Of a DNA stretch of 51,777 bases, positions 529 to 49,671 are shown piece after piece. This DNA is from Escherichia phage FritzSarasin: sequence record MZ501069; one strand, 5' to 3'. The translations under genes and the position numbers were made by a program. Position 1 is the first letter of the stretch, and each line of letters begins with the position of its first letter. The notes below the pieces were generated by a model. That model saw nothing but the letters and a program-made list of their open reading frames with translations, made no database searches and was not told where the DNA came from.

Positions 529-2096
529 TGATCATATGGGAAGATTTGACGGCGGCGCAAAAGCGAGCCATTAAAGAAATCAGTGAGCATTCATTCGAAA
601 AGATGATCAGAATCTGGTTCCAATTATTGCAGGGGCAAAAATTCCAGAGCAACTGGCATTTTAGCTTATTGTGCAGTGAGGTAGAGAAGATCATCAATGG
701 AGAGTCGCAGAATGTGATTTTCAACATTACGCCAGGTAGCGGCAAGACTGAGATTTTCTCGATCCACATGTCACCCTACGCGTCATTGAAAAGCCGGAAA
801 GTGAGAAACCTTAACCTTTCGTTTAGTGATGGCCTTGTCCAGCAAAACAGCAACCGGATAAAGGAGATTATCGGTTCTCCTGAGTGGCAAGAGCTATGGC
901 CTGGAAAACTGGCAAAGGCGAGCGCTAAAGATCTGATAGTCACCGAAGGCGGCAAGGTTAAATTGCAGGTTAACTCACGTTCTATTGGCGGCCAGGTAAC
1001 AGGTTTGCGTGGCGGCTATATGGATGATGGTTTTACTGGTATGCTGGTTCTTGACGATCCAGACAAGCCGGATGATATGCTTTCTAAGGTCAAGCGCGAG
1101 GCTATTCACATGCGGTTAAAAAACACAGTGCGATCGCGTCGAATGAAAGACACCACGCCAATTGTTATGGTGCAACAGCGACTACACGTTAATGATTCCA
1201 CCTGGTTCATGCTTAATGGCGGGATGGGTGGTATTGAGTTTAAAGTCGTGAGCATTCCGGCGCTGGTTACGAAAGAATACCGCGAAACGCTTCCTGATTG
1301 GTTGAAGCCTGAATTTGATCGTGATGTGCTGTCAAGTAAGCCAGTGATGATAGATGGCGTCGCTCATTATTCATTTTGGCCTGCGAAGGAAAGCGCGGAT
1401 GAGTTGCTTGCATTGCGCAATGCAGATCCTTACACGTTCGCCAGCCAATACCAACAGCAACCAATCGCGCTTGGCGGGAACGTGTTTAAAACAGAGTGGT
1501 TCCAGTATTACGGCAGCGGCGAAAAGTGCGCACTACCAAAACCGGATCGCTTTGAATACACATTTATTACTGGAGATACCGCGCAGAAGGCCGGAGAGCT
1601 TAACGACTATTCGGTTTTTTGTTATTGGGGGATGTATAAGAATCGCGTTTACTTCATTGATGGCATTCGCGGAAAGTGGGAAGCGCCGGATCTTGAATTA
1701 AATTTTATTGCCTTCGTTAACCAGTGCTGGAAGCGCAATAAGGAGTGTGGCAGCTTGCGACGTATCCACATTGAGGATAAGGCCAGCGGCACGGGTTTGA
1801 TTCAGGGGGCCAAAAAGAAGATCCCGATTGATATAAATCCCGTTCAGCGAAGCAATGACAAGGTAACGCGAGCAATGGACGCCGCGCCAGTGATGAGGGC
1901 CGGACGTGTGGCACTGCCAGAAAATCACCCCATGCTGCCTGAGATACTGGCAGAGGTTGCAGCATTCACTTTTGATGATTCTCATCCCCATGATGATATT
2001 GTCGATAATATAGTTGATGCTGTTAACGTCGAAATGAATTTGGCAGATGATCCGGTAGCAAGAATGAAAAAGCTGGCAGGTCTACGCAATAAATAG
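528..2096 (+). CDS. terminase large subunit
   Basis: 522 aa; Walker A-like GSGKT near N-terminus; size and position ahead of portal typical of TerL. Confidence 0.85.
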   Translation: MIIWEDLTAAQKRAIKEISEHSFEKMIRIWFQLLQGQKFQSNWHFSLLCSEVEKIINGESQNVIFNITPGSGKTEIFSIHMSPYASLKSRKVRNLNLSFSDGLVQQNSNRIKEIIGSPEWQELWPGKLAKASAKDLIVTEGGKVKLQVNSRSIGGQVTGLRGGYMDDGFTGMLVLDDPDKPDDMLSKVKREAIHMRLKNTVRSRRMKDTTPIVMVQQRLHVNDSTWFMLNGGMGGIEFKVVSIPALVTKEYRETLPDWLKPEFDRDVLSSKPVMIDGVAHYSFWPAKESADELLALRNADPYTFASQYQQQPIALGGNVFKTEWFQYYGSGEKCALPKPDRFEYTFITGDTAQKAGELNDYSVFCYWGMYKNRVYFIDGIRGKWEAPDLELNFIAFVNQCWKRNKECGSLRRIHIEDKASGTGLIQGAKKKIPIDINPVQRSNDKVTRAMDAAPVMRAGRVALPENHPMLPEILAEVAAFTFDDSHPHDDIVDNIVDAVNVEMNLADDPVARMKKLAGLRNK

Positions 2097-2112
2097 CACT
2101 AATTGCTAAAAA
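2092..2112 (+). promoter_or_regulatory. conserved promoter-module motif, variant copy (rightward)
   Basis: AATAGCACTAATTGCTAAAAA; followed by TATATAAT and a hairpin; portal ATG 75 nt downstream. Confidence 0.5.
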
Positions 2113-2125
2113 GTTATATAATCAA

Positions 2126-2150
2126 GGCTGGATTTTTCCAGCCTTTTTTA
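2126..2150 (+). terminator. rho-independent terminator-like hairpin
   Basis: GGCTGG-ATTTTT-CCAGCC followed by TTTTTTATT. Confidence 0.55.
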
Positions 2151-2166
2151 TTATGGAGATTTGACT

Positions 2167-3459
2167 ATGAGCGAAAAAACAAGGCTAGTTAAGGCCGATG
2201 GATACAACGAGATTTTCAAGGGTAGCAAGGGTAATGGGCGTGTGGAGTTGCCTTTCTTTATGCAAGGGTTCGAATACACCACGCACGCTGATTTTTACAT
2301 TCGCGACGGCCTAGCAAAAAGAATCATCGACGTTGTTCCAGAGGAAATGGTAACGCCTGGATTTAATATTGATGGCGTGGAAGATGAGGAAAGTTTCAGA
2401 TCTTTGTGGGATGAGAAGCGACTAAACGATAAAATCATTGATGCGCTTTGCTGGTCGCGTCTTTTTGGTGGCGCTGCAATCGTGGCAATCGTTCAGGATG
2501 GCAGGGCATTAAAGTCACCTGTAGCGCCTGGTGCAATCCTTGAAGATGTTCGCGTTTACGATCGCTTTCAGGTTCGCGTAGAAAAGCGCGAAACTAATCC
2601 ACGTAAGGTAAGATATGGCGAGCCGTTAATTTACACCATTTCACCTGGTGCGGACTTGCCAGAATATCAGGTTCACTATTCGCGAGTCTGTATTATCGAC
2701 GGTGAGCGGCTACCAAATCAGCGACGTCAATCAAATGATGGTTGGGGTGAGTCAATCCTGAATAAGCGATTGGTTGAGGCTATTTGTGATTACAACTACT
2801 GCGAAAACTTAGCAACTCAATTGTTGCGACGTAAGCAACAGGCGGTATGGAAGGCTAAAGGTCTTGCTGATCTTTGTGATGATGATGATGGTGTTAGCGC
2901 CGCACGTTTGCGCCTTGCTCAAGTTGATGATGAGGGTGGAGTAGGCCGTGCGATCGGCATTGATGCGGAAGATGAGGAATATGATGTTTTAAACTCTGAT
3001 ATTTCCGGCGTCGATTCATTCCTGGAAAAGAAGATGGATCGCATTGTATCTCTTTCCGGCATCCATGAAATCATCCTCAAAAACAAGAACGTTGGCGGTG
3101 TTAGTGCGAGCCAAAACACGGCGCTTGAAACCTTCTACAAGCTGATCGATAGAAAGAGAAAGGAGGAATACAAACCAATCCTTGAATTTCTGATCCCATT
3201 CCTGATTCAAGAGGAAGAATGGAGTATTCAGTTTGCGCCGTTAAGCGTTCCCAGCGAAAAGGACCAGGCCGAGATCTTGAACAAGAACATTGATTCTTTG
3301 AGCAAGGCTATTGACGGTCAATTCATGGATACAGAGGAGGCGCGCGACACATTGCGAGCCATTGCGCCTAACGTTAAACTAAAAGACGGCAATAACATTA
3401 AATTACCTGAGCAGGACGTAGAGCCGGAGCCAGGAACAACCGAGGGTAGCAATCAATGA
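2167..3459 (+). CDS. portal protein
   Basis: About 430 aa directly after TerL; GGAG RBS 8 nt upstream of ATG 2167 (track ORF starts at TTG 2161); acidic C-terminus. Confidence 0.7.
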   Translation: MSEKTRLVKADGYNEIFKGSKGNGRVELPFFMQGFEYTTHADFYIRDGLAKRIIDVVPEEMVTPGFNIDGVEDEESFRSLWDEKRLNDKIIDALCWSRLFGGAAIVAIVQDGRALKSPVAPGAILEDVRVYDRFQVRVEKRETNPRKVRYGEPLIYTISPGADLPEYQVHYSRVCIIDGERLPNQRRQSNDGWGESILNKRLVEAICDYNYCENLATQLLRRKQQAVWKAKGLADLCDDDDGVSAARLRLAQVDDEGGVGRAIGIDAEDEEYDVLNSDISGVDSFLEKKMDRIVSLSGIHEIILKNKNVGGVSASQNTALETFYKLIDRKRKEEYKPILEFLIPFLIQEEEWSIQFAPLSVPSEKDQAEILNKNIDSLSKAIDGQFMDTEEARDTLRAIAPNVKLKDGNNIKLPEQDVEPEPGTTEGSNQ

Positions 3460-4211: not shown

Positions 4212-4221
4212 GAGGTGTTAA

Positions 4222-6692: not shown

Positions 6693-6717
6693 CTAATAGC
6701 ATAAAAAAACATTGCAC

Positions 6718-6736
6718 GTTTAACAAAAAGTGCTAT
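6718..6736 (-). promoter_or_regulatory. conserved motif copy, reverse orientation, upstream of capsid gene
   Basis: GTTTAACAAAAAGTGCTAT; pairs with partial AATAGCATAAAAAAAC at 6695-6710 as an inverted repeat. Confidence 0.45.
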
Positions 6737-6742
6737 CATCTA

Positions 6743-10431: not shown

Positions 10432-10471
10432 CATTCCTGTAAAATCAATCTATCAAATAAATCAATTCCAC

Positions 10472-10490
10472 TTTTAACAAAAAGTGCTAT
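10472..10490 (-). promoter_or_regulatory. conserved motif copy, reverse orientation, abutting RBS of chaperone gene
   Basis: TTTTAACAAAAAGTGCTAT directly followed by AAGGAG and ATG 10505. Confidence 0.45.
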
Positions 10491-10504
10491 AAGGAGATCT
10501 TGAG

Positions 10505-16377: not shown

Positions 16378-16426
16378 GTGCCTTTATAATGTGCAAACCA
16401 AGAAACAGCACAAAAGGTTAAAAGTC

Positions 16427-21051: not shown

Positions 21052-21100
21052 TACTCCTTAGTTGTCGTTGCCTGTAACTATACACGATCCGACAAGCGGC

Positions 21101-21120
21101 GTTTAGCAAAAAGTGCTACT
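21101..21120 (-). promoter_or_regulatory. conserved promoter-module motif, variant copy (leftward)
   Basis: Minus-strand reading AGTAGCACTTTTTGCTAAAC, about 21 nt, then TATAGT; lipoprotein ATG about 70 nt downstream. Confidence 0.5.
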
Positions 21121-26737: not shown

Positions 26738-26755
26738 AATAGCACTTTTTGCTAA
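26738..26755 (+). promoter_or_regulatory. conserved motif copy abutting RBS of tail-fibre gene (reverse relative to gene)
   Basis: AATAGCACTTTTTGCTAA on the plus strand; on the minus strand it sits directly 5' of AGGAGG and the tail-fibre ATG. Confidence 0.45.
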
Positions 26756-26785
26756 TGACAATGCAGATAATAGCATTTTCAAATG

Positions 26786-27811: not shown

Positions 27812-28288
27812 TTAGCTATTCGTGCTGTTATCACCTTTGTAGAATCGTCCGCCTGGTTCGTAGTCTGAATTTTTGACTACGCGCAACATTTCGTATTTGT
27901 CGCAACGGGTAGTAAGAGGCTTGCCGTTAGAATCAAACCGCAGATCTGGACGACAAAACGAGGCGCGGTATCCTTTGCATCCATTATATTTGTAGTCGTT
28001 ATGCACCTTTTGTGCTCCAGCGGCTGAAATCATACCACGCTTTCGCCATTGGTTAACAACTTGCTGAGATACGCGCAGACGTCGAGCCATAGCAGGAACG
28101 CCGCCGTAATACTCGATCAGAATGTCAAGGCGAGATTTCAGGCTTGCTTTTACCTCATCTCGCAGGATAAGAAATCCGGTTCGGTGTTTTCGTGGCTTTT
28201 TGTCTTTACCTCGTCGCGTTCCGTTGTTACCGTTAATAGTGCGCTTGTCGATCTCACCCGTAGATACTGCAATTCGTGCATCTTTCAT
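27812..28288 (-). CDS. putative HTH DNA-binding protein
   Basis: 158 aa; basic N-terminus and HTH-like segment RRLRVSQQVVNQWRKRGMIS; RBS GAGGTGA. Confidence 0.45.
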   Translation of the reverse strand: MKDARIAVSTGEIDKRTINGNNGTRRGKDKKPRKHRTGFLILRDEVKASLKSRLDILIEYYGGVPAMARRLRVSQQVVNQWRKRGMISAAGAQKVHNDYKYNGCKGYRASFCRPDLRFDSNGKPLTTRCDKYEMLRVVKNSDYEPGGRFYKGDNSTNS

Positions 28289-28299
28289 CTAGTCACCTC

Positions 28300-28319
28300 A
28301 TAGCATTTTTTGTTAAAAC
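28300..28319 (+). promoter_or_regulatory. conserved promoter-module motif copy (rightward)
   Basis: ATAGCATTTTTTGTTAAAAC, 22-nt spacer, TATTAT; helicase ATG 77 nt downstream. Confidence 0.55.
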
Positions 28320-28375
28320 AGTTTATTGTAATGAGTCTATTATATACTCCAAATGGCATTTTTTAAAGGTTTAAG

Positions 28376-30373: not shown

Positions 30374-30792
30374 TGGCTATAACTGATAAAGGCGATTATC
30401 TTGAGTTTTACGAAAGGGATCCAACCGACACGAGAAGGGAAGTTAATCACCAGATAGATAGTTTTCAGTGGTTGACTTATGCTCATCCTTATTTGCTGGC
30501 GTGGCATACGGTAAACGAGAATGAGAAGTCTAAAGTAACGGCGATGATTGATCAGCAGTCCGGCTTGGTTAAGGGAGTAAGCGATTTCATCATCCTGATT
30601 GGTTTAAACGGAAAATACCCCTTTGCAGCGATTGAGATCAAACGAGTGAATAAATCAGGCAAGGGGAAAGCATCACCAGTCAGCGATGAACAAAAGGCTT
30701 TTTTGCGTCGCGTTCGCAGCTTAGGAGGATTCGCTGCGGTAGCCTACGGATTCAATCAGTTTAAGTTGGCTATTGAATACATGCTTAAATAG
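30373..30792 (+). CDS. VRR-NUC domain nuclease
   Basis: 139 aa; core GVSDFIILIGLNGKYPFAAIEIKR fits the D...E.K pattern; start overlaps helicase stop. Confidence 0.55.
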   Translation: MAITDKGDYLEFYERDPTDTRREVNHQIDSFQWLTYAHPYLLAWHTVNENEKSKVTAMIDQQSGLVKGVSDFIILIGLNGKYPFAAIEIKRVNKSGKGKASPVSDEQKAFLRRVRSLGGFAAVAYGFNQFKLAIEYMLK

Positions 30793-30808
30793 CACTTTTT
30801 GTTAAAAC
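30788..30808 (+). promoter_or_regulatory. conserved promoter-module motif copy (rightward)
   Basis: AATAGCACTTTTTGTTAAAAC, inverted repeat GGCGCGATGGATTGCGCC, CATAAT; contains stop TAG of the upstream gene; Dam ATG 85 nt downstream. Confidence 0.6.
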
Positions 30809-30872
30809 TGGCGCGATGGATTGCGCCATAATTCAATAACACGAGATGGCTTTTAATAGCGGAGAAATGAAA

Positions 30873-31602: not shown

Positions 31603-31860
31603 ATGGAAAAAGAGAGAAGCGTTTATTTAAATGAAACTGGCGAGTGGTTGTTATTTCGCGCTATGGTGTGCGATGCACTTGATAAAAACCCTAACGTGAA
31701 AAAGATGATTGATTGCGATCCGTGGGAATTTTCAAGCGCATTAGATATGAGCTTTGAGGAGACAAGAAAACTCCCGCTTGAAAAATGGCACGAACAAATC
31801 AGAAATGACATGCAAGAGTTTGTCGATTCGTGGAATTTTCAGCACGGAATGATCCACTAA
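31603..31860 (+). CDS. hypothetical protein
   Basis: 85 aa with GGAG RBS; stop TAA embedded in the next motif copy. Confidence 0.55.
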   Translation: MEKERSVYLNETGEWLLFRAMVCDALDKNPNVKKMIDCDPWEFSSALDMSFEETRKLPLEKWHEQIRNDMQEFVDSWNFQHGMIH

Positions 31861-31879
31861 TAGCACTTTTTGTTAAAAC
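31859..31879 (+). promoter_or_regulatory. conserved promoter-module motif copy (rightward)
   Basis: AATAGCACTTTTTGTTAAAAC, hairpin GCCCGGCCTAGTGTCGGGC, CATAAT; ATG 77 nt downstream. Confidence 0.6.
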
Positions 31880-31935
31880 GCCCGGCCTAGTGTCGGGCAT
31901 AATTATTTCAACGAAGCAAACATGAGGAAATAAAA

Positions 31936-34803: not shown

Positions 34804-34819
34804 TGCCTCCTTTATTTTT
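34794..34819. terminator. bidirectional terminator
   Basis: AAAAA-GGAGGCTTAATGCCTCC-TTTATTTTT between convergent spanin and leftward gene. Confidence 0.6.
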
Positions 34820-35042
34820 ATGCGTCGGGCCACATATGAGTTTCGTTTGTTGGCTTGTTCGATTCGTCATACTGCCTTACTTCAATGCTGCAAGTGTCGC
34901 CATACATTTCTGCAATCTTGCGCTCATTTTCAACAGCCGATTGCTCACTCCATCCAAAATCCCTGTCATAAATTGTCGGGATTTCAGCAGAAGATCCGTT
35001 GTCATGATTATATACGCGAACTACTAAAAACTTGCTGGACAT
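34818..35042 (-). CDS. hypothetical protein
   Basis: 74 aa; driven by the leftward motif module at 35103-35123. Confidence 0.55.
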   Translation of the reverse strand: MSSKFLVVRVYNHDNGSSAEIPTIYDRDFGWSEQSAVENERKIAEMYGDTCSIEVRQYDESNKPTNETHMWPDA

Positions 35043-35102
35043 AATTTTACCTTTTGGTTGTTTCGTTTCGATGAAACAAATATACCCGACACTAGGCCGG
35101 GC

Positions 35103-35123
35103 GTTTTAACAAAAAATGCTATT
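35103..35123 (-). promoter_or_regulatory. conserved promoter-module motif copy (leftward)
   Basis: Minus-strand reading AATAGCATTTTTTGTTAAAAC + GCCCGGCCTAGTGTCGGG + TATAT; nearly identical to the inverted copy at 31859. Confidence 0.6.
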
Positions 35124-35239
35124 CCATACGCTTTACCGTAACCAGTAATACACCATCATCATTGCATAAAACATGTTCAGTGGTGCTAAAAGCGCGCATA
35201 TCTGAATAAAGTATCGTAAGTAAAGCATGAATAAAATCC

Positions 35240-35635
35240 TCATGTGATATTGAATTTACGGCGCAGTGCTTCAAGATCTTGTCTATTAGCTTTTGCCTGG
35301 AACAATTCATCATCGCCCATCTCCCCTATTCTAGCCATATCCCTGATCCAGTCGTTGCGCATACCATCCAGGCTATACAATTCGAATCCGAAAGGCCGCT
35401 TTGACGATCCTTTGGACCAGTATTTACCGCAGACCCCATCTATATAGCCAGCCGTCATCATTCTTGCGCAAAATTCCTTAGATGCAAGGCTGGCGAACAT
35501 TCGCGGCGTAAGTCCGGCGGCCCGTGCGAGCCGCTCACATTCTCTATGATGATAGATAAATTTGGCTATGTGCTGCCTGTTAAACCAGTCGTATGACTCA
35601 CACCATTTATACAGATCAAGCAAAAACATAATCAT
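35240..35635 (-). CDS. hypothetical protein, coupled to upstream P-loop ATPase
   Basis: About 131 aa; start overlaps stop of the ATPase gene (ATGA); no recognisable motif. Confidence 0.5.
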   Translation of the reverse strand: MIMFLLDLYKWCESYDWFNRQHIAKFIYHHRECERLARAAGLTPRMFASLASKEFCARMMTAGYIDGVCGKYWSKGSSKRPFGFELYSLDGMRNDWIRDMARIGEMGDDELFQAKANRQDLEALRRKFNIT

Positions 35636-37212: not shown

Positions 37213-37264
37213 TCGTTAGCTTCTCCTTTGTGGGCCGTAAATTTTAACGGCCCAATACTACCCC

Positions 37265-37285
37265 GTTTTGTCAAAAAGTGCTATT
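37265..37285 (-). promoter_or_regulatory. conserved promoter-module motif, variant with TTGACA (leftward)
   Basis: Minus-strand reading AATAGCACTTTTTGACAAAAC, 22 nt, TAAAAT inside hairpin GGGCCG...CGGCCC; ATPase ATG 74 nt downstream. Confidence 0.55.
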
Positions 37286-37885: not shown

Positions 37886-37938
37886 GATCAGATCTCCTTT
37901 GTTTGTTCGATGTGATTATGCCAGGTTTTTACACCTGG

Positions 37939-37959
37939 CTTTTAACAAAAAGTGCTATT
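37939..37959 (-). promoter_or_regulatory. conserved promoter-module motif copy (leftward)
   Basis: Minus-strand reading AATAGCACTTTTTGTTAAAAG + hairpin CCAGGTGTAAAAACCTGG + CATAAT. Confidence 0.6.
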
Positions 37960-40082: not shown

Positions 40083-40137
40083 CTTTAAATCCTCGTTTGT
40101 TGTCGATGCGGTAAATATACCAACTTACCGCATACGA

Positions 40138-40158
40138 CTTTTAACAAAAAGTGCTTTT
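40138..40158 (-). promoter_or_regulatory. conserved promoter-module motif, variant copy (leftward)
   Basis: Minus-strand reading AAAAGCACTTTTTGTTAAAAG + hairpin GCGGTAAGTTGGTATATTTACCGC (TATATT in loop). Confidence 0.55.
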
Positions 40159-40565
40159 TATTCCGTGGTGTCGATAGTGATTGGCCGCAACTCCTGGAGC
40201 GTCACACGATGATCGCGAATAATTGATTCTTTATCTTTCAGGCCATTGTAGCAATTTTGCGCTCTCTCTTTAAATCGGCCTGCATAACAAAGGGTGGCCC
40301 GTCCATTCTCGCGATTCGTTGCAATTACGCGGTAAATAGGCCGTAATTCCTCTTCAAATACTGGTCGGAAAGCGTAACTTTCAAAGCCAGTGCCATAGAA
40401 TCGGTTATCATCGTCACGCGAGATGTAAAGAGGTTCGCGATAATCATCAAGAACATACTCATCGCCATATTTTTCATCGCGCAATACGGCGTATTCAGCG
40501 CCTTTTGTGAAAGTCCATGCGTGACTGGTGTTTTCGCCAATGAATTTAAGAGACTGCGATACCAT
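40158..40565 (-). CDS. hypothetical protein (FTKGAEY motif)
   Basis: 135 aa; contains WTFTKGAEY. Confidence 0.55.
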   Translation of the reverse strand: MVSQSLKFIGENTSHAWTFTKGAEYAVLRDEKYGDEYVLDDYREPLYISRDDDNRFYGTGFESYAFRPVFEEELRPIYRVIATNRENGRATLCYAGRFKERAQNCYNGLKDKESIIRDHRVTLQELRPITIDTTE

Positions 40566-40579
40566 TTTTTGATCTCCTG

Positions 40580-40807
40580 TTAGTAAGTGATTGAAGAAAT
40601 ATCATCAAAGCCCTGGAATTCCGCATTCCATACCAGGAAGTTTGAGAGATTCTCACAACGATACCAGCCGCCGCTCAATTCCATGTATGTAGCATAACCG
40701 CCAGGGATAGCCTTAACAGCGTAGCGCTTATGGTTGCGAGTGATGAAAATCGCAAAACGTTTGTCGTTTGTCTGGTCGATTGCTTTCTGGTTGGCGACTA
40801 CTGACAT
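40580..40807 (-). CDS. hypothetical protein
   Basis: 75 aa; driven by motif module at 40864-40885. Confidence 0.55.
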   Translation of the reverse strand: MSVVANQKAIDQTNDKRFAIFITRNHKRYAVKAIPGGYATYMELSGGWYRCENLSNFLVWNAEFQGFDDISSITY

Positions 40808-40863
40808 TTTGAAAATCCTCTGTTTCGTTTCGATGCGCTTACTATACCAATCAGCAGCGCATC

Positions 40864-40885
40864 GTTTTTAACAAAAAGTGCTATT
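40864..40885 (-). promoter_or_regulatory. conserved promoter-module motif copy (leftward)
   Basis: Minus-strand reading AATAGCACTTTTTGTTAAAAAC + hairpin GATGCGCT...AGCGCATC with TATAGT. Confidence 0.6.
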
Positions 40886-42109: not shown

Positions 42110-42167
42110 TGCTATCTCCTGAGCGGTTCGTTTCGATGTGTGTAATGTACCCGATCAGACGGCCTGA

Positions 42168-42188
42168 GTTTTAACAAAAAGTGCTATT
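42168..42188 (-). promoter_or_regulatory. conserved promoter-module motif copy (leftward)
   Basis: Minus-strand reading AATAGCACTTTTTGTTAAAAC, about 22 nt, TACATT; ATG about 80 nt downstream. Confidence 0.55.
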
Positions 42189-42742
42189 TGACGGTTAGCG
42201 CCAGGATTGTGATCGAAATAATCAAAAGTAATCATTCGTAATCAAATCAAGTCAAAATGATGATTGCCTTTGCAAATTTGATGAGAAAAGTAATCACGTT
42301 TAATCATTGGTTGCAGGGGAGATAGTGAAACCTTCCCCTCTTGCCTCACTTTTTTGCCTGGCTGTCAGTGGTTGTTGTCTTTTGTTCACCCCTGTTACCG
42401 ATTTCAGGCGGCGTGTTTCCGCGCGGTTTTCCGGTGTAGCGAAAACGGAAAAAACAAAGAAAATCCTTTATAATACATTGAAAATAAAGATTATTTATTT
42501 ATATATATCTATAATGTTTTCTTTTTGTTCTCACTGTTACAGTGCTTTTTGTTGGTTATGGTGTGGTTGTGTGTGGGCATATATGGATAGTTGCGCGCGC
42601 GGCGGATTGCATATGTATATATACTTTTTCCGGCGGATTGCGTTAACAGCGTGAACAGAAAAATAACAGCCGTGAAATCAATAACTTGCGCATGATTTTG
42701 TAGTTTTTTGATATTGGTAACGTTTTGAATACAACAAAAACA

Positions 42743-42770
42743 TTGACACGCACCAAATAGCTTTTATAAT
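42743..42770 (+). promoter_or_regulatory. consensus sigma70 promoter (TTGACA-N16-TATAAT)
   Basis: Perfect -35 and -10 hexamers about 30 nt upstream of ATG 42802. Confidence 0.65.
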
Positions 42771-42801: not shown

Positions 42802-43266
42802 ATGGAACAGAAGACCACTAAGGACTATTGCGATTGGCTTCGCGAGCTTGGTCGCCGCCTGGCTAGTGGCGATATTGAAGAGTATAAAATGTCACTAATT
42901 GACCTGGCCGGAATGTTAAGCGGTGACGACTGCTACAAGATCACGCGCAGTTCATCCTACAGCCGGACCATTATCAACCGCGTTCCAGAAGTAAGGGCCG
43001 CAGGTCGGGTAAGTATCAAGGTCGAGGAAACGGAAGATGATAAATTTTACGTTTTCCGCATGGTGCGCGAATCGAAAAGGAAAATCATCACACCCGAAGA
43101 ATTGCCAGCCATAAAGGCAAGGGCGATCAAAAAGTTTGCCGATCGCTTACTGGCAGCAATCCCGAACATCGTGGACCTGGAGGGTGATAAACTGGCTGGA
43201 GCTTGTGAGGGCGTAAGCCGCTACCAGGATATGATTCGCGAAATCATCAAAGAGGAGGAGCAATAA
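42802..43266 (+). CDS. hypothetical early protein
   Basis: 154 aa from ATG 42802 (RBS GGAGGAAAGG); track start 42769 lies inside the -10. Confidence 0.55.
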   Translation: MEQKTTKDYCDWLRELGRRLASGDIEEYKMSLIDLAGMLSGDDCYKITRSSSYSRTIINRVPEVRAAGRVSIKVEETEDDKFYVFRMVRESKRKIITPEELPAIKARAIKKFADRLLAAIPNIVDLEGDKLAGACEGVSRYQDMIREIIKEEEQ

Positions 43267-43526
43267 TGAAAAAGGCATTAATCGGCGTTTTGGCGGCAAT
43301 GACACTCCTGACCGGATGCGAAAAGGCATCAGAATCAACGGTTGTCGTAGGCGTGGAGTCAGATTTCAAAGTCGGTCGCCTGTTCACTGTTGACGGATGC
43401 ACAGCATACAGATTCTATGATAACGGTCGCGCGATCTATTACACCAATTGCAAAGGCGCAACGGATAGCACGTACAACAGCGGAAAGAACGTAATGCACC
43501 AGCAAGTCACAACAGATATTAAATAG
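43266..43526 (+). CDS. putative lipoprotein
   Basis: 86 aa; signal peptide with lipobox LLTGC; stop TAG embedded in the next motif copy. Confidence 0.6.
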   Translation: MKKALIGVLAAMTLLTGCEKASESTVVVGVESDFKVGRLFTVDGCTAYRFYDNGRAIYYTNCKGATDSTYNSGKNVMHQQVTTDIK

Positions 43527-43542
43527 CACTTTTTGTTAAAAC
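43522..43542 (+). promoter_or_regulatory. conserved promoter-module motif copy (rightward)
   Basis: AATAGCACTTTTTGTTAAAAC + hairpin GCCAGGCGCAAAGCCTGGC + CATAAT; ATG 77 nt downstream. Confidence 0.6.
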
Positions 43543-43598
43543 GCCAGGCGCAAAGCCTGGCATAATAGCCTCATCGAAACGAGATTGAGGAAACAAAA

Positions 43599-43799: not shown

Positions 43800-43985
43800 A
43801 TGAAAACGAAATTAGTCCATAAATCAGAAATCAAGATCGGCGATACTGTGATTCACAACGGAGAGCTTAGAACGGTTGGCAAAGAGTCAATAAGCCACGA
43901 TGAATTTATGGGGATCTTGTTGTTCGGTGACTCTTATCGTCTTGGTTACAAGATGGTTGAGCTTGTGGAAGAAGTGAAATTCTAA
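43800..43985 (+). CDS. hypothetical small protein
   Basis: 61 aa; stop TAA embedded in the next motif copy. Confidence 0.5.
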   Translation: MKTKLVHKSEIKIGDTVIHNGELRTVGKESISHDEFMGILLFGDSYRLGYKMVELVEEVKF

Positions 43986-44005
43986 ATAGCACTTTTTGTT
44001 AAAAC
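43985..44005 (+). promoter_or_regulatory. conserved promoter-module motif copy (rightward)
   Basis: AATAGCACTTTTTGTTAAAAC then CCAGGCATAAT. Confidence 0.55.
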
Positions 44006-44084
44006 TCAAAAACGATAACCAGGCATAATAAATCACATAGGGCGGCACGGCGTCGCCCAGTTAAACCAATCAGGAGAAAGCACC

Positions 44085-44978: not shown

Positions 44979-45054
44979 GTTTGTTCACTGCGGCGCACGT
45001 CGCCGCATGGATCGGATTGTTTGCCTACCTGTTTAGCTTTTATTGAGGTGAGAG

Positions 45055-45207
45055 ATGGCTACCTGGATTTTGCTGATTCTTATGATTGATGGCGGCGTTG
45101 ACCATATCGAAATGAATAGCCAGCAATCTTGCATTGAGGCACGAGAACAGATCAAGAACGACAACAGGTTTTATGCGTACACTCACACGCTATGTATTAA
45201 GAAATAG
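45055..45207 (+). CDS. putative small membrane peptide (not in ORF track)
   Basis: 50-aa ORF with RBS GAGGTGAGAG; hydrophobic N-terminus; stop TAG embedded in the next motif. Confidence 0.35.
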   Translation: MATWILLILMIDGGVDHIEMNSQQSCIEAREQIKNDNRFYAYTHTLCIKK

Positions 45208-45223
45208 CACTTTTTGTTAAAAC
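45203..45223 (+). promoter_or_regulatory. conserved promoter-module motif copy (rightward)
   Basis: AATAGCACTTTTTGTTAAAAC + GGGGCCAGG TATAAT GGCC; ATG 74 nt downstream. Confidence 0.6.
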
Positions 45224-45276
45224 TCAAATGTGGGGCCAGGTATAATGGCCTCACTTTCAACGAAGGAGATAAAACG

Positions 45277-45715: not shown

Positions 45716-45726
45716 TAGGTTTGATA

Positions 45727-46269
45727 ATGAAAAAATACACTTTCGAACTGTGGGGCAAAAAGTACGAATTAATCACCAGCAAGCCGATTGTTATCGTTGA
45801 CCTGGACGGCACACTATCGGACGGATCGCATCGTTTGCATTTGCTGCCAACTGAAAACTTGCACCTTACGGAATCGTGGCGCGAGTTTAACAGGGCCGCC
45901 GCCGGAGATTCACCTATTAAAAGCACTATCGCGGTTATTAACGGTTTATGGGTGTCGGGATTTGCCATCGTCATCTTGACCGGACGCAGCGACGAGGTTC
46001 GCTATGAAACCTGCAAATGGTTGAATGAGAACGGCGTGAAGTTTGACGAAATCATCATGCGCCGCCAGGAGGACAACCGAAAGGATACGGTTATCAAAGA
46101 AGAAGCCTTGCGCGCTATTGGCCTGGACAACATTGTTTGCGCCTTTGACGATTCGCCGAACGTGGTTAAGCACTTCCGCAGCCTGGCAATCACAACCTAT
46201 CAGGTCACGGAATACGACAAGCCGCACGCTCACCTGCAATCTCACGGCGTGGAGGAGTTGCAGAAATGA
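45727..46269 (+). CDS. HAD-superfamily phosphatase (nucleotidase / polynucleotide 3-phosphatase-like)
   Basis: About 180 aa; HAD motif I IVIVDLDGTLSDG, motif II ILTGR, C-terminal FDDS. Confidence 0.6.
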   Translation: MKKYTFELWGKKYELITSKPIVIVDLDGTLSDGSHRLHLLPTENLHLTESWREFNRAAAGDSPIKSTIAVINGLWVSGFAIVILTGRSDEVRYETCKWLNENGVKFDEIIMRRQEDNRKDTVIKEEALRAIGLDNIVCAFDDSPNVVKHFRSLAITTYQVTEYDKPHAHLQSHGVEELQK

Positions 46270-46475
46270 TCCTGAATGTAGCATATGCTAACCCTCGCGG
46301 CTGCAATATATACGGCTTTAAGGTTGGCGCGATGGTCAACGCCAGGATAAACGAAAAAGGCGTATTAGTTGTCAAGTCCCCTAAAACTGGCATGGATATG
46401 CGCATCAAGGAGAACGGCGGAAGATTGTTTATCAGGTCAATATCTGGTCAAACGCTCGCAACGTTCACAAAATAG
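46266..46475 (+). CDS. hypothetical small protein
   Basis: 69 aa; stop TAG embedded in the next motif copy. Confidence 0.5.
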   Translation: MILNVAYANPRGCNIYGFKVGAMVNARINEKGVLVVKSPKTGMDMRIKENGGRLFIRSISGQTLATFTK

Positions 46476-46491
46476 CACTTTTTGCAAAAAC
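46471..46491 (+). promoter_or_regulatory. conserved promoter-module motif copy (rightward)
   Basis: AATAGCACTTTTTGCAAAAAC + hairpin GGGCTTGCGGTATAGTAAGCCC. Confidence 0.6.
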
Positions 46492-46546
46492 AGATTATCG
46501 GGCTTGCGGTATAGTAAGCCCATCGACAACGAAAGAGGAAGCGGCG

Positions 46547-46846
46547 ATGTTAGTACGCAATGCGATTTATAAATTCACAAACGAGATGGGGGTTCACCTT
46601 TACCACGTAAACCATCAAGGCAACACCTCAATCGCGATGTATCGCGACGCTCGCGGGAAGTGTAGGCCTTCTCTGCGTGGCAGAATTTCTCCTGCGTTCT
46701 TCATGTTTAGATGGTATGCAACAGAACAAAGCAACCATAACCATTGGAATAAAGTATTGATTGCAGGAGGCCGAATTGTTGCCAGTCACGTAGTCGATCC
46801 TTGCAAACTAACCAGTCGCCAGCTTCGCAAAATGGCGCGCAAATAG
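46547..46846 (+). CDS. hypothetical protein
   Basis: 99 aa; flanked by near-identical modules at 46471 and 46842. Confidence 0.5.
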   Translation: MLVRNAIYKFTNEMGVHLYHVNHQGNTSIAMYRDARGKCRPSLRGRISPAFFMFRWYATEQSNHNHWNKVLIAGGRIVASHVVDPCKLTSRQLRKMARK

Positions 46847-46861
46847 CACTTTTTGTTAAAA
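46842..46861 (+). promoter_or_regulatory. conserved promoter-module motif copy (rightward)
   Basis: AATAGCACTTTTTGTTAAAA + hairpin CGGCTTGCGGTATAGTAAGCCC. Confidence 0.6.
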
Positions 46862-46917
46862 TCAACTTTACGGCTTGCGGTATAGTAAGCCCATCAACAA
46901 CAAACGAGGATTAAATC

Positions 46918-47363: not shown

Positions 47364-47423
47364 TTCTTGCTATGGCGCATTCATGCAGTGCGCCATGTTG
47401 AGAAAACCTAAAGGGGGGGGGGA

Positions 47424-47768: not shown

Positions 47769-47770
47769 TC

Positions 47771-48361
47771 ATGAAACGAGACATTATCATCCTTAATGGG
47801 CCTCCAGGTTGCGGGAAGGACACTATTGCAGCTTACCTAACGGGCCATCGTTACCCAGCGGTTAAGGCATCGTTCAAGCAACCTATGTTCGACATTGCTT
47901 TTTCTATGCTTGGCCCGACTCGATACGATGAATTTATGGATCTGTACAACGACCGAGAGCAAAAAGAAAAGCCTCAAGTTATCTTAGGCGGCAAGTCACC
48001 TCGACAATTCATGATCTGGATTAGCGAGGATGTAATGAAGCCAGTTTTTGGGGATCACTATTTCGGGCGTCGAATGGTTGAAGAGATTCACGAGATGTAC
48101 CGAGATTTGGCGGTTGTGATCAGTGATGGCGGATTCCCCGAAGAAATCAAGCCGCTTGTTAAGGAAGGGCATGAAGTGCATATTTGCCGATTGCATCGCG
48201 ACGGCTTCACGTTTGCTGGCGATTCGAGAGACTACATTGACCTGAGCGGTTATCACTATCGAATCCATCACTATGACTTCCAATTGCAGGACGGCAAGCC
48301 GGAAATGGCTGTAAACGAGATCGTCAATACGGTCAAATGGAAGCACACACAGATTAAATAG
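47771..48361 (+). CDS. P-loop kinase, dNMP-kinase-like
   Basis: 196 aa; N-terminal P-loop ILNGPPGCGKDT; later VISDGG and HICRLHR blocks resemble phage dNMP kinases (from memory). Confidence 0.55.
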   Translation: MKRDIIILNGPPGCGKDTIAAYLTGHRYPAVKASFKQPMFDIAFSMLGPTRYDEFMDLYNDREQKEKPQVILGGKSPRQFMIWISEDVMKPVFGDHYFGRRMVEEIHEMYRDLAVVISDGGFPEEIKPLVKEGHEVHICRLHRDGFTFAGDSRDYIDLSGYHYRIHHYDFQLQDGKPEMAVNEIVNTVKWKHTQIK

Positions 48362-48376
48362 CACGAATTGCTAAAC
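48357..48376 (+). promoter_or_regulatory. conserved promoter-module motif, variant copy (rightward)
   Basis: AATAGCACGAATTGCTAAAC + hairpin GCGGGGTTATCTGCCCCGC + TATAAT; ATG 75 nt downstream. Confidence 0.55.
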
Positions 48377-48431
48377 GCGGGGTTATCTGCCCCGCTATAA
48401 TGCGCACATCAACAAGCAAGAGGAAATTACA

Positions 48432-48812
48432 ATGGTTAACATCCGAAAAATCCGCGTCGGCACTAAATTCTTAGTTACTTATGCAATTCCCGATAGCGGA
48501 ATGAAGAAGGGCCAGATTGTTAAGGTTGATAGCAAAAGGTTCGGAATCCCTGGTATCAATGGCTATCTAATCAATAAAGATCTTGGATTCGACGGCTTCG
48601 CTATCCGTGCGCTTGAGGGTATTGTTGCCACTCTTAAGCGAATCACTAATCATCGCGGTTGTCCAATCAAGACGATTAAAGCGCCAATAAATTACGGCAA
48701 ACTGGATAATCGTCGAATCCGCCGCCTGGCGCGTAACGCGTTAAAATTCCGTGGCGTAGGCGATGATTTCTACTATGGATACAAGAGGATTGCGCGCAAT
48801 GCTGGGAAATAA
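48432..48812 (+). CDS. hypothetical protein
   Basis: 126 aa; basic. Confidence 0.55.
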   Translation: MVNIRKIRVGTKFLVTYAIPDSGMKKGQIVKVDSKRFGIPGINGYLINKDLGFDGFAIRALEGIVATLKRITNHRGCPIKTIKAPINYGKLDNRRIRRLARNALKFRGVGDDFYYGYKRIARNAGK

Positions 48813-48911
48813 CAATAACGCAACGAATCCTAAGCCACCTTTTGATTTTCATTCCGCAATGATTGCGGTATTATCAATGCTACTTTTTCTTTATAGCATG
48901 AGGGCGCTACT

Positions 48912-49160
48912 ATGGTTTTTAACGCATTGAAACGACTGTTTAAGCCGGAATACCGGATCGTATTTTGCCGCGACTGTTCTACTTATCATGTGCAGCGACG
49001 CAGCTTAGGCGGCAATTGGCACTATGTTACAGACGACTTTTTCGGCATCATTGCCACTGAATTTAAGTATTACAGTGATGCTTATATGTACGTCAAGAAT
49101 CGCCACCGCTTACGCAAGTGTCGTTTTTCCGTGCTGATTCACGTTAATGATTGTTACTGA
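48912..49160 (+). CDS. hypothetical protein
   Basis: 82 aa ORF. Confidence 0.45.
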   Translation: MVFNALKRLFKPEYRIVFCRDCSTYHVQRRSLGGNWHYVTDDFFGIIATEFKYYSDAYMYVKNRHRLRKCRFSVLIHVNDCY

Positions 49161-49167
49161 GGTGAAA

Positions 49168-49350
49168 ATGAAAACTGGCATTATTATTCTTTTTCTGATC
49201 CTTTTCGGCAGCTATTTAACCATTAACTATGAGGGCATTATGGCCTTTTGGGGCAACTTGATGATGTTTACCGCTGGTTCGATTGCTGGCTACTCTGACG
49301 GGAAAAAGGATGGCGTTCGCAAGATGCTGATGGGGCTTAAACAAAAATAA
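49168..49350 (+). CDS. putative small membrane protein
   Basis: 60 aa from ATG 49168 (RBS GAGGTGAAA); two hydrophobic segments. Confidence 0.4.
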   Translation: MKTGIIILFLILFGSYLTINYEGIMAFWGNLMMFTAGSIAGYSDGKKDGVRKMLMGLKQK

Positions 49351-49361
49351 GGGGATCTGAA

Positions 49362-49652
49362 ATGGCAAACAAAACTTACCGCAAACTACTGGTTAACGCT
49401 TTTGAAAATATCGCGCAGTGTAACAAGTGGAACGACTCTAAACACTCGCCAATCACAATGAAGCGCGCCGGATTCAAAAATGCTCGTTCATGGGCGCGAG
49501 CTTTCGCAGCTTGCTATATGCCGGATGGTGGACTAGGAGCGATGAACGAGTTTTTGATCAACATGATAGAGGAAGCTGCGCGAGAGGATCGACCGCTGAC
49601 ACAGCGAGATTTTGATGATTTCGCGCGCGATGAGCTTTACTATCTGAGCTAA
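49362..49652 (+). CDS. hypothetical protein
   Basis: 96 aa; stop TAA embedded in the next motif copy. Confidence 0.5.
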   Translation: MANKTYRKLLVNAFENIAQCNKWNDSKHSPITMKRAGFKNARSWARAFAACYMPDGGLGAMNEFLINMIEEAAREDRPLTQRDFDDFARDELYYLS

Positions 49653-49671
49653 TAGCACTTTTTGTTAAAAC
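49651..49671 (+). promoter_or_regulatory. conserved promoter-module motif copy (rightward)
   Basis: AATAGCACTTTTTGTTAAAAC + hairpin GGGCATTTGGTAAAGTGCCC; ATG 77 nt downstream. Confidence 0.6.

What the first reader, a model, noticed from the sequence alone, without database searches (positions are those of the whole stretch)
2092..49671. A 21-bp motif heads about 18 promoter-leader modules that delimit gene cassettes
About 21 copies of AATAGCACTTTTTGTTAAAAC (or close variants) occur in intergenic positions. In 18 of them (the other three are the reverse-oriented copies described separately) the motif is followed by a roughly 22-nt spacer, usually a GC-rich inverted repeat, then a -10-like hexamer (CATAAT, TATAAT, TATAGT), an RBS and an ATG 70-85 nt (100 nt for one copy) from the motif start. 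Rightward copies are at 2092, 28300, 30788, 31859, 43522, 43985, 45203, 46471, 46842, 48357, 49651; leftward copies at 21101, 35103, 37265, 37939, 40138, 40864, 42168. Orientation matches the downstream gene in each case. The fixed geometry suggests one regulon recognised by a common factor. The layout resembles the promoter-plus-stem-loop modules described in T4-like phages as boundaries for shuffling gene cassettes.
Basis: seen in the sequence. Interest (0 to 1): 0.8.

Follow-up and report, generated by a model that had tools for sequence, protein, structure and literature searches.

The report
Marbox-type promoter cassettes in T1-like phage
A T1-like coliphage puts the same 21-base signal in front of about 17 gene cassettes, and that signal matches the binding site of the host stress activators MarA/SoxS/Rob at the position where those proteins switch on host promoters, which suggests the phage borrows them to transcribe its early genes.

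Summary
Observation confirmed. The window is a complete T1-like phage genome (Warwickvirus, Drexlerviridae). It holds 21 copies of the 21-nt motif (17 within 3 mismatches; 0.03 expected). Seventeen head a rigid module: motif, 18-nt spacer (17 nt twice) that usually forms a stable hairpin, -10-like hexamer, conserved start region, Shine-Dalgarno, and a start codon 69-100 nt from the motif start. The repeat is already published for phage TLS, whose authors list its function as an open question.

What I add: the motif fully matches the enterobacterial marbox, the binding site of the host activators MarA/SoxS/Rob/RamA. It lies in forward orientation, at the same distance from the -10 hexamer as in the host class II promoters micF and nfo, and there is no -35 hexamer. 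The design recurs in T1, Rtpvirus and Klebsiella Webervirus. Copies vary only at degenerate marbox positions, and the phage encodes no MarA homologue. Most likely these are class II Mar/Sox/Rob-type promoters driving early and middle gene cassettes.

Homology breakpoints between close relatives cluster at motif edges (6 of 24; 0.5 expected), which supports the cassette-shuffling analogy with T4-type PeSLs. Everything is computational; binding and start sites are untested.

The parts
28299..28375 (+). Module upstream of the ATP-dependent helicase gene. Marbox-like motif 28299-28319, -10 TATTAT 28338-28343, start codon 28376.
30788..30872 (+). Module upstream of the adenine methyltransferase gene. 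Motif 30788-30808, spacer hairpin, -10 CATAAT 30827-30832, start codon 30873. The upstream ORF stops at the TAG inside the motif.
31859..31935 (+). Module. Motif 31859-31879, spacer hairpin, -10 CATAAT 31898-31903, start codon 31936.
43522..43598 (+). Module. Motif 43522-43542, spacer hairpin GCCAGGC/GCCTGGC, -10 CATAAT 43561-43566, predicted start A at 43573 in CATCGAAAC, start codon 43599.
   Evidence: Homology with relatives resumes at 43521.
43985..44084 (+). Module with a long leader of 49 nt that contains its own hairpin. Motif 43985-44005, -10 CATAAT 44024-44029, start codon 44085.
45203..45276 (+). Module with a 17-nt spacer. Motif 45203-45223, -10 TATAAT 45241-45246 in a hairpin loop, start codon 45277.
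   Evidence: Breakpoint at 45202.
46471..46546 (+). Module. Motif 46471-46491, whose core GCACTTTTTGCAAAA is identical to a RamA/SoxS-bound Salmonella site. -10 TATAGT 46510-46515 in a hairpin loop, start codon 46547.
46842..46917 (+). Module. Motif 46842-46862, -10 TATAGT 46881-46886 in a hairpin loop, start codon 46918.
   Evidence: Breakpoints at 46838 and 46842.
48357..48431 (+). Module of the 'GAA' subtype. Motif AATAGCACGAATTGCTAAACG 48357-48377, spacer hairpin, -10 TATAAT 48396-48401, start codon 48432.
49651..49727 (+). Module. Motif 49651-49671, -10 TAAAGT 49690-49695 in a hairpin loop, start codon 49728.
21052..21120 (-). Module with a 17-nt spacer upstream of the Cor-like gene. Motif 21100-21120, -10 TATAGT 21077-21082, start codon 21051.
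35043..35123 (-). Module. Motif 35103-35123, spacer hairpin, -10 TATATT 35079-35084, start codon 35042.
37213..37285 (-). Module upstream of the DNA helicase gene. Motif 37265-37285, -10 TAAAAT 37241-37246 in a hairpin loop, start codon 37212.
37886..37959 (-). Module. Motif 37939-37959, spacer hairpin, TGG + CATAAT 37915-37920, start codon 37885.
40083..40158 (-). Module. Motif 40138-40158, 9-bp hairpin around the -10 TATATT 40114-40119, start codon 40082.
   Evidence: Breakpoints at 40155 and 40164.
40808..40885 (-). Module. Motif 40865-40885, hairpin around the -10 TATAGT 40841-40846, start codon 40807. The whole cassette has a homologue in the opposite arm of T1, and that homology ends at the motif's 5' end.
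42110..42188 (-). First module of the leftward gene cluster. Motif 42168-42188, -10 TACATT 42144-42149, start codon 42109.
   Evidence: Breakpoint at 42189.
2092..2166 (+). Atypical copy. The marbox core GCACTAATTGCTAAA equals the host ChIP consensus, but there is no -10 at the fixed spacing. It is followed by an intrinsic terminator and then the SD and ATG (2167) of the portal gene.
6717..6737 (-). Reverse-oriented copy next to a terminator, just upstream of the major head gene.
   Evidence: A homologous reverse copy exists in T1.
10471..10491 (-). Reverse-oriented copy between a bidirectional terminator and the tape-measure chaperone gene. On its own strand it has TAGATT at the 18-nt spacing.
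   Evidence: A homologous reverse copy exists in T1.
26738..26758 (+). Degenerate reverse-oriented copy (AATAGCACTTTTTGCTAATGA) between a terminator and the start of the 877-aa minus-strand gene.
16404..16424 (+). Degenerate copy AACAGCACAAAAGGTTAAAAG abutting the tail-fibre start codon. It equals DR8 of phage TLS.

Best explanation
The modules are promoters for the host sigma-70 RNA polymerase of the class II activator-dependent type. The 21-nt motif is a marbox, the asymmetric 20-bp site bound as a monomer by the host AraC-family activators MarA, SoxS and Rob (RamA in Klebsiella).

The motif lies in forward orientation, centred about 41 bp upstream of the predicted start, and replaces the missing -35 hexamer. 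In the host, the bound activator at such a site contacts sigma-70 region 4 and an alpha C-terminal domain. Polymerase itself reads only the good, often extended, -10 hexamer. Transcription would start at the A of the conserved CATCGAAAC, giving a 19-34 nt unstructured leader (49 nt at 43985) with a GAGGA ribosome-binding site.

Rob is the most likely partner in unstressed cells because it is constitutive and abundant. MarA and SoxS would add input under antibiotic or oxidative stress.

Two further features make each unit a compact cassette. A stop codon (TAG or TAA) for the upstream gene is built into the first five bases of the motif. A GC-rich hairpin lies between the motif and the start site and probably attenuates or ends read-through from the cassette before.

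Because the roughly 80-bp module is repeated, homologous recombination between modules deletes, swaps and moves cassettes, as proposed for the PeSLs of T4-type phages.

Shown here: sequence match, orientation, spacing, conservation, hairpin stability, breakpoint clustering. Inferred: activator binding, start sites, activation, hairpin function.
For: Identity of the element.
- The window is a Warwickvirus, ~98% identical to phage tonnikala.
- T1-like phages encode no RNA polymerase or sigma factor. TLS has only three sigma-70-like promoters.

Sequence.
- The motif core GCACTTTTTGTTAAA matches 10 of 10 specified positions of the marbox as defined by the Grainger laboratory, gcannwwntgnnaaa.
- It matches 15 of 15 positions of GCAHWWWWTGYYAAA.
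- It fits AYNGCACNNWNNRYYAAAYN except Y19, where the host micF site also has A.
- A weight matrix built only from 87 ChIP-seq sites of MarA/SoxS/Rob/RamA in Salmonella scores the phage copies (all but two degenerate ones) at 13.9-17.9 bits. That is the 75th-100th percentile of the real sites.
- Several phage cores are identical to bound host sites.

Geometry.
- E. coli micF: ACAGCACTGAATGTCAAAAC, 18 nt, TAGAAT.
- E. coli nfo: marbox, 18 nt, TATCAT.
- E. coli fumC: marbox, 17 nt, AATAAT.
- Phage: ATAGCACTTTTTGTTAAAAC, 18 nt (17 in two), hexamer.
- The phage 20-mer is identical to the micF marbox at 15 of 20 positions.
- Published class II rules are a forward marbox overlapping -35, centred near -41/-41.5, with no recognisable -35.
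- The modules match TTGACA at a mean of 2.4 of 6 positions even at the best of three spacings. They match TATAAT at 4-6 of 6.

Enrichment and conservation of marbox + N20 + nANNNT.
- Window: 17 (0.15 expected).
- Klebsiella phage KLPN1: 13 (0.06).
- Rtpvirus IME253: 11 (0.07).
- T1: 18 modules.
- Unrelated Vibrio phage: 0.
These are the n/W positions of the marbox.

Other points.
- No MarA homologue is encoded in the phage.
- Cassette behaviour is shown.
- Hairpins are shown.
- 14 modules have the upstream ORF's stop codon inside motif positions 1-5.
Against: - There is no experiment. Neither binding of Rob/MarA/SoxS, nor the start sites, nor activator dependence has been measured for any T1-like phage. 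I found no such data in the literature library.
- MarA-family activators are described as weak, about 2-4-fold. Rob is largely sequestered in standard growth conditions. This sits uneasily with the main promoters of a fast lytic phage.
- Many modules have extended -10 features and might work without any activator.
- Within this genome 11 copies are identical over all 21 nt, including positions the marbox does not specify (AATA at the 5' end, the T run). Something else also constrains the sequence: the built-in stop codon, gene conversion between modules, or another protein.
- The phage encodes a conserved Cro/YdaS-like HTH regulator and many early proteins of unknown function. Any of these could bind the motif.
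- The marbox consensus is degenerate, and I examined several other host-factor consensus sequences before finding this match.
Confidence: 0.6

Rival explanations
1. The motif is the binding site of a phage-encoded protein that activates, or later shuts off, these promoters. Candidates are the conserved Cro/YdaS-like regulator (27812-28288, minus strand) and an immediate-early protein made from the consensus sigma-70 promoter at 42743. The likeness to the marbox would be convergent.
For: - The phage has an HTH regulator conserved across the family.
- It has one perfect TTGACA-N16-TATAAT promoter driving two genes of unknown function.
- The motif has partial dyad symmetry, TAGCA-N5-TG(C/T)TA.
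- It is more conserved than a marbox needs to be.
Against: - The motif is unchanged between genera whose regulator is only 58-64% identical and differs in the putative recognition helix.
- GCA-N5-TGC symmetry is inherent to good host marboxes.
- The exact micF/nfo spacing and orientation would be an unexplained coincidence.
- Modules head the first genes of both arms, which must fire before much phage protein exists.
- No AraC-type protein is encoded.
Confidence: 0.15
2. These are activator-independent sigma-70 promoters. The extended -10 does the work. The A/T-rich motif acts as an UP-like element or as an odd -35 substitute contacted directly by polymerase, as suggested for the TLS repeats.
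For: - G at -14 in 15 of 17 modules and TG in 5 of 17, with -10 hexamers matching at 4-6 of 6.
- The TLS authors raised the UP-element idea.
- The motif contains T and A runs.
Against: - The invariant letters are GCAC, TG and AAA, not an A/T tract.
- The motif covers about -51 to -31, overlapping the -35 position, rather than the -60 to -40 of UP elements.
- Its TTGTTA lies 22 bp from the -10, too far for a -35 hexamer.
- Variation follows the marbox pattern.
Confidence: 0.12
3. The motif is a stoperator-like repressor site. An oriented, repeated operator in short intergenic regions is bound by a protein that blocks polymerase, as in mycobacteriophage L5. The neighbouring -10-like hexamers are secondary.
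For: The sites are oriented, repeated and intergenic in the direction of transcription, an analogy the TLS authors drew. The reverse copies lie beside terminators in the late region.
Against: - The phage is virulent and has no repressor-integrase module.
- The rigid 18-nt link to a -10 hexamer, the conserved start site and the leader are features of a promoter, not of an elongation block.
- L5 stoperators have no such geometry (my knowledge of Brown et al. 1997, cited).
Confidence: 0.06
4. The repeats are only recombination or boundary sequences spread by cassette shuffling, with no role in transcription.
For: Breakpoints cluster at motif edges, and one cassette has been deleted between two modules.
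Against: - Recombination alone does not explain invariance limited to marbox-specified positions across four genera.
- It does not explain the fixed spacing to varied -10 hexamers, with variable spacers in between.
Confidence: 0.03

Closest known systems
21-nt intergenic direct repeats of phage TLS and other T1-like phages (Kropinski, Misra and colleagues 2024, PMC11447400)
   Same: It is the same element. The consensus is aaATAGCACnnnTTGnTAAAA, with 18 intergenic copies lying in the direction of transcription about 76 nt upstream of start codons. The same TTT and GAA subtypes occur here, and the paper reports similar repeats in T1, Rtp and Rogue1.
   Different: That paper leaves the function open (stoperator, enhancer site or UP element) and lists it among unanswered questions. 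It does not mention the marbox, the fixed -10 hexamer, the hairpins, the built-in stop codon or breakpoint clustering.
Class II Mar/Sox/Rob-dependent promoters of E. coli and Salmonella (micF, nfo, fumC, lpxC P2, lpxL P1)
   Same: A forward marbox overlaps the -35 position, centred near -41. There are 17-18 nt between the 20-bp marbox and the -10 hexamer, no -35 consensus and a good -10.
   Different: The element is found in a virulent phage, in about 17 near-identical copies per 52-kb genome. It is fused to a conserved leader, a hairpin and the upstream stop codon. Binding and activation are untested.
PeSL (promoter-early stem-loop) cassettes of T4-type phages RB49 and phi1 (Arbiol et al. 2010, PMC2839356)
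   Same: [quoted passage not shown] Each contains an early promoter plus a stem-loop placed between -35 and -10 or over the -10. They flank small genes of unknown function, and recombination between units deletes or swaps cassettes.
   Different: PeSLs carry consensus sigma-70 -35 and -10 hexamers with an AT-rich upstream region. Here the -35 is replaced by a marbox. The phage family differs. Terminator activity and mini-circles were shown for PeSLs but not here.
MotA-dependent middle promoters of phage T4
   Same: A good -10 hexamer is combined with an activator box that replaces the -35 hexamer, repeated in front of many phage genes (my knowledge of Hinton's work on T4 middle promoters).
   Different: The MotA box is centred at -30 and is read by the phage proteins MotA and AsiA. 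Here the box is centred near -41 and matches a host activator site. The ten early proteins I scanned gave no such family hits.

Membership tests
Class II marbox (MarA/SoxS/Rob) promoter | The sequence matches the marbox consensus (AYnGCACnnWnnRYYAAAYn; gcannwwntgnnaaa). | tested here: met
   10 of 10 and 15 of 15 specified positions match. A ChIP-derived matrix scores the copies (all but two degenerate ones) at 13.9-17.9 bits, the 75th-100th percentile of real sites.
Class II marbox (MarA/SoxS/Rob) promoter | Forward orientation: GCAC distal and AAA proximal to the -10. | tested here: met
   All 17 typical modules are oriented this way, the same as micF.
Class II marbox (MarA/SoxS/Rob) promoter | The marbox overlaps the -35 position, is centred near -41, and lies 17-19 bp from the -10 hexamer. 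| tested here: met
   The gap is 18 nt (17 in two), against micF 18, nfo 18 and fumC 17. The centre is -40.5 to -41.5, relative to predicted rather than mapped start sites.
Class II marbox (MarA/SoxS/Rob) promoter | No recognisable -35 hexamer, with a canonical -10. | tested here: met
   Mean 2.4 of 6 matches to TTGACA and 4-6 of 6 to TATAAT.
Class II marbox (MarA/SoxS/Rob) promoter | Bound by MarA, SoxS or Rob and activated by them. | not testable with these tools
   This needs gel shift or footprinting, in vitro transcription and reporter assays in rob marA soxS mutants.
PeSL regulatory cassette (T4-type phages) | Consensus sigma-70 early promoter with both -35 and -10 hexamers. | tested here: not met
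   A -10 is present, but there is no -35 at 16-18 bp. PeSLs are identical to the sigma-70 consensus.
PeSL regulatory cassette (T4-type phages) | A stable stem-loop inside or overlapping the promoter. | tested here: met
   Mean -12.5 kcal/mol against -5.7 for the null. The hairpin lies in the spacer or around the -10.
PeSL regulatory cassette (T4-type phages) | Recombination between units reshuffles the flanked small genes. | tested here: met
   6 of 24 breakpoints lie within 5 nt of a motif (0.5 expected). Phage tunus has a cassette deleted between two modules. One cassette sits in the opposite arm in T1.
PeSL regulatory cassette (T4-type phages) | The stem-loop acts as a transcription terminator or attenuator. 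| not testable with these tools
   The hairpins lack a U tract. This needs terminator-probe assays.
T1-like phage 21-nt direct repeat (TLS type) | Consensus aaATAGCACnnnTTGnTAAAA, intergenic, in the direction of transcription, about 76 nt upstream of the start codon. | tested here: met

The most novel reading that the evidence does not exclude
A whole family of virulent phages (Drexlerviridae: T1, TLS, Rtp, Warwickvirus, Klebsiella Webervirus) has wired nearly all of its early and middle transcription to the host's Mar/Sox/Rob stress-response activators, through about 11-18 class II marbox promoters per genome. Phage gene expression would then depend on, and respond to, the host's antibiotic, oxidative and bile-stress state. 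The replicating phage DNA would also act as a sink for these activators, weakening the host's efflux and porin response, including TolC, which is the TLS receptor.
Probability: 0.5. Interest if true: 0.85.

Novelty: new variant of a known kind. Interest (0 to 1): 0.75.

Why it matters
- Specialists on T1-like phages state in print that they do not know what the 21-base repeat does, and that these phages have almost no recognisable sigma-70 promoters. Reading the repeat as a class II marbox gives a concrete and cheap experiment for each step: gel shift with Rob/MarA/SoxS, reporter fusions in a triple mutant, and 5'-end mapping.
- If the reading is right, it would be the first case I know of in which a virulent phage family uses the Mar/Sox/Rob regulon machinery as its main promoter system.
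- It would link phage productivity to antibiotic, redox and bile exposure of the host. That matters for phage therapy with Klebsiella Webervirus and for T1 contamination control.
- It would show that cassette shuffling through repeated promoter units, described for T4-type myoviruses, also operates in an unrelated siphovirus family with a different promoter chemistry.
- The modules are compact, portable, activator-responsive expression units of possible use in engineering.

Tried and rejected
Alternative readings of the motif, checked by reading the alignment against consensus sequences recalled from memory.
- TTGTTA as a -35 hexamer: rejected, because it lies 22 bp from the -10.
- A promoter on the opposite strand (TTAACA ... 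TGCTATT): rejected, spacing only 8 bp.
- Sigma-54 (TGGCAC-N5-TTGC): rejected, the GG/GC spacing is 2 bp short and GG is AG.
- Sigma-28: poor fit of the -10.
- UP element: it would have to sit 8-9 bp further upstream.
- Fis, IHF and CRP consensus sequences: no fit.
- Lrp consensus YAGHAWATTWTDCTR: 12-13 of 15 matches, but this explains neither the orientation nor the spacing.
- Dimeric-HTH palindrome TAGCA-N5-TGCTA: the symmetry is inherent to good marboxes.

Searches that led nowhere.
- Literal motif strings in the literature.
- Transcriptome or start-site data for Drexlerviridae.
- Any paper linking Rob/MarA or the marbox with T1-like phages.
- A MarA homologue in the phage by phmmer and tblastn.
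- Pfam, PHROG and PDB searches of immediate-early proteins, which gave only families of unknown function.
- Rfam on the whole window: no hits.

Other points.
- The Vibrio phage taken as an outgroup turned out to be an unrelated myovirus sharing only the terminase, so it serves only as a negative control.
- PMC3070153, on class II SoxS promoters, is not held.
- Reverse-oriented copies as class I (backward) marboxes for the downstream late genes: rejected, because there is no room for a promoter between the site and the start codon.

Full report
WHAT THE WINDOW IS. The 51,777-base window is a complete, circularly permuted genome of a T1-like siphovirus. Its 28-48 kb stretch is about 98% identical to Escherichia phage tonnikala (Drexlerviridae; Tempevirinae; Warwickvirus), and dozens of close relatives exist. 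Structural genes run rightward from about 1 to 19.9 kb. Replication, lysis and many small genes of unknown function fill 21-51.7 kb. That part is organised as a leftward cluster (42.1 to 34.8 kb) and a rightward cluster (42.8 to 51.7 kb), which diverge from a 550-bp non-coding region.

THE OBSERVATION.
- The motif AATAGCACTTTTTGTTAAAAC occurs 17 times at three or fewer mismatches, with 0.03 expected.
- Three copies have four mismatches, and a divergent subtype sits at 48357. I found one more degenerate copy at 16404.
- Eighteen copies point the same way as the gene that follows.
- In 17 of these the layout is rigid: motif; 18 nt (17 nt at 21100 and 45203); a hexamer that matches TATAAT at 4-6 positions and always has A2 and T6; six bases; then usually CATCGAAAC or a close variant; a GAGGA-type ribosome-binding site; and a start codon 69-85 nt from the motif start (100 nt at 43985).
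- Copy 2092 is atypical, with a terminator instead of a -10.
- The variable 18-nt spacer and its surroundings form hairpins far more stable than random genomic segments. The mean is -12.5 against -5.7 kcal/mol, and 72% of modules fall below the 5th percentile (p = 3.5e-7). The same holds in T1 (p = 1.5e-9).
- In some modules the hairpin lies wholly in the spacer. In others it brackets the -10 hexamer.

WHAT WAS ALREADY KNOWN.
- The repeat is not new. [quoted passage not shown] The consensus is aaATAGCACnnnTTGnTAAAA, about 76 bases from start codons, also seen in T1, Rtp and Rogue1.
- The authors found only three sigma-70-like promoters in TLS. They offer stoperators, enhancer sites or UP elements as guesses, and list the function of the repeat among open questions.
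- I found no transcription-start mapping for any member of the family.

WHAT THE MOTIF IS.
- There is no -35 hexamer. The best match to TTGACA at 16-18 bp from the -10 averages 2.4 of 6, and the TTGTTA inside the motif is 22 bp away.
- The motif spans about -51 to -31, where class II activators bind.
- Its sequence fits the marbox, the asymmetric site of the AraC-family activators MarA, SoxS and Rob. It fits AYNGCACNNWNNRYYAAAYN, gcannwwntgnnaaa at 10 of 10 specified positions, and GCAHWWWWTGYYAAA at 15 of 15.
[quoted passage not shown] The phage copies (all but the degenerate ones at 26738 and 16404) score 13.9-17.9 bits, the 75th to 100th percentile of the real sites. Some phage cores are letter-for-letter identical to bound host sites.

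GEOMETRY COMPARED WITH HOST PROMOTERS.
- The literature defines class II marbox promoters by a forward marbox overlapping the -35 position, centred near -41/-41.5, without a recognisable -35 element.
- I read the E. coli K-12 sequences directly.
  - micF: ACAGCACTGAATGTCAAAAC, 18 nt, TAGAAT.
  - nfo: ATCGCATAAACCACTACATC, 18 nt, TATCAT.
  - fumC: ATGGCACGAAAGACCAAACA, 17 nt, AATAAT (the -10 is my reading).
- The phage module is ATAGCACTTTTTGTTAAAAC, 18 nt, then the hexamer. Orientation and spacing are the same, and 15 of 20 letters are shared with micF.

CONSERVATION.
- Counts of the literature marbox followed by 20 nt and nANNNT:
  - window: 17 (0.15 expected);
  - Klebsiella phage KLPN1 (Webervirus): 13 (0.06);
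  - Rtpvirus IME253: 11 (0.07);
  - unrelated Vibrio phage: none.
- T1 has 18 modules with the same geometry.
- The large terminase of these genera is only 49-65% identical to the window's, yet the motif is the same.
These are the degenerate positions of the marbox. All strictly specified positions are invariant.
- The pooled phage consensus GCACTTTTTGCTAAA differs from the host ChIP consensus GCACTAATTGCTAAA only at two W positions. That pooled set was selected with the matrix, so it is partly circular.
- The phage encodes no MarA-like protein.

MECHANISM PROPOSED. Host sigma-70 polymerase reads the -10, which is often extended (G at -14 in 15 of 17). A host activator bound to the forward marbox supplies the contacts that a -35 hexamer would otherwise give, as in the solved micF complexes. 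Rob is my first candidate in unstressed cells because it is constitutive and abundant (my knowledge; its high affinity is stated). MarA, SoxS and, in Klebsiella, RamA would add stress inputs. This step is inferred, not shown.

THE CASSETTE IDEA.
- The first five bases of the motif (AATAG) hold the stop codon of the upstream gene in 14 modules. A unit therefore runs from one motif to the next.
- PeSLs of T4-type phages are built the same way, with the stem-loop between -35 and -10 or over the -10. They were shown to terminate transcription and to mediate cassette exchange.
- I compared the window with tonnikala, tunus and ExeQuayColi. There are 24 distinct homology breakpoints between 26 and 51.8 kb, and 6 lie within 5 nt of a motif (0.5 expected; P<5e-5).
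- Tunus lacks window 40164-40813 through recombination between the two flanking modules.
- ExeQuayColi carries a different cassette between the same two motifs.
- The cassette at 40599-40885 has its T1 homologue in the opposite arm, with homology ending at the motif's 5' end.

CAVEATS.
- Nothing here is experimental.
- MarA-family activation is modest, and Rob is partly sequestered in rich medium.
- Eleven copies are identical over all 21 nt, more than a marbox requires. The built-in stop codon and gene conversion between modules may explain this, or another factor may be involved.
- The conserved Cro/YdaS-like regulator and the unknown immediate-early proteins remain possible binders.
- The function of the hairpins is unknown. 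They lack U tracts.

VERDICT. Its reading as a class II marbox promoter fused into a PeSL-like cassette appears to be new. No paper in the library links the two. The reading is directly testable.

Noticed in passing
window 6717-6737 (-), 10471-10491 (-), 26738-26758 (+): Three copies point against the flanking genes. Each lies beside an intrinsic terminator, immediately upstream of a late or large gene (major head, tape-measure chaperone, 877-aa minus-strand gene). T1 has reverse copies at the homologous late sites (15069-, 18833-). Copy 10471 has TAGATT at the canonical spacing and would fire into a bidirectional terminator about 30 nt away, which could give a tiny antisense RNA. The role is unknown.
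   Followed up: partly
window 42190-42770: A non-coding, AT-rich divergent region of about 550 bp carries short TAATCA-type repeats. It is followed by a perfect sigma-70 consensus promoter (TTGACA-N16-TATAAT, 42743-42770) that drives a DUF7174 gene (42802-43266). It may be an origin or control region together with the one activator-independent immediate-early promoter.
   Followed up: partly
window 2092-2166: This copy carries the host-consensus marbox core GCACTAATTGCTAAA. It is followed by TATATAAT 2 nt after the motif end and by an intrinsic terminator hairpin, then directly by the SD and ATG of the portal gene. It is not a standard module.
   Followed up: partly
window 16404-16424: A degenerate copy, AACAGCACAAAAGGTTAAAAG, abuts the tail-fibre start codon with no room for a promoter. 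The same variant is DR8 in phage TLS.
   Followed up: no
all modules, e.g. 43572-43598, 40808-40835: The predicted start region and leader are themselves conserved (CATCGAAACGAAACAGAGGA and variants, also in T1). They form an A/C-rich, unstructured 5' UTR of 19-34 nt. This may reflect a translation or stability signal, or gene conversion between modules.
   Followed up: no
T1 (L004) 39979, 41959; KLPN1 (L005) 46653, 48527: Several spacer hairpins in T1 and KLPN1 close with C-GAAA-G loops (for example CCCGCGAAAGCGGG). This motif is known for unusual stability in both RNA and DNA hairpins.
   Followed up: no
window 34813-35279: In phage tonnikala this stretch, which contains the module at 35103 and its small gene, is replaced by a segment encoding an HNH endonuclease. 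That looks like a homing-endonuclease exchange rather than module-mediated shuffling.
   Followed up: partly
window 46254-46841: This 588-bp segment holds two small genes and one module. In tonnikala and tunus it is replaced by 160-180 bp that complete a longer polynucleotide kinase gene. The right junction lies at the start of the motif at 46842.
   Followed up: partly
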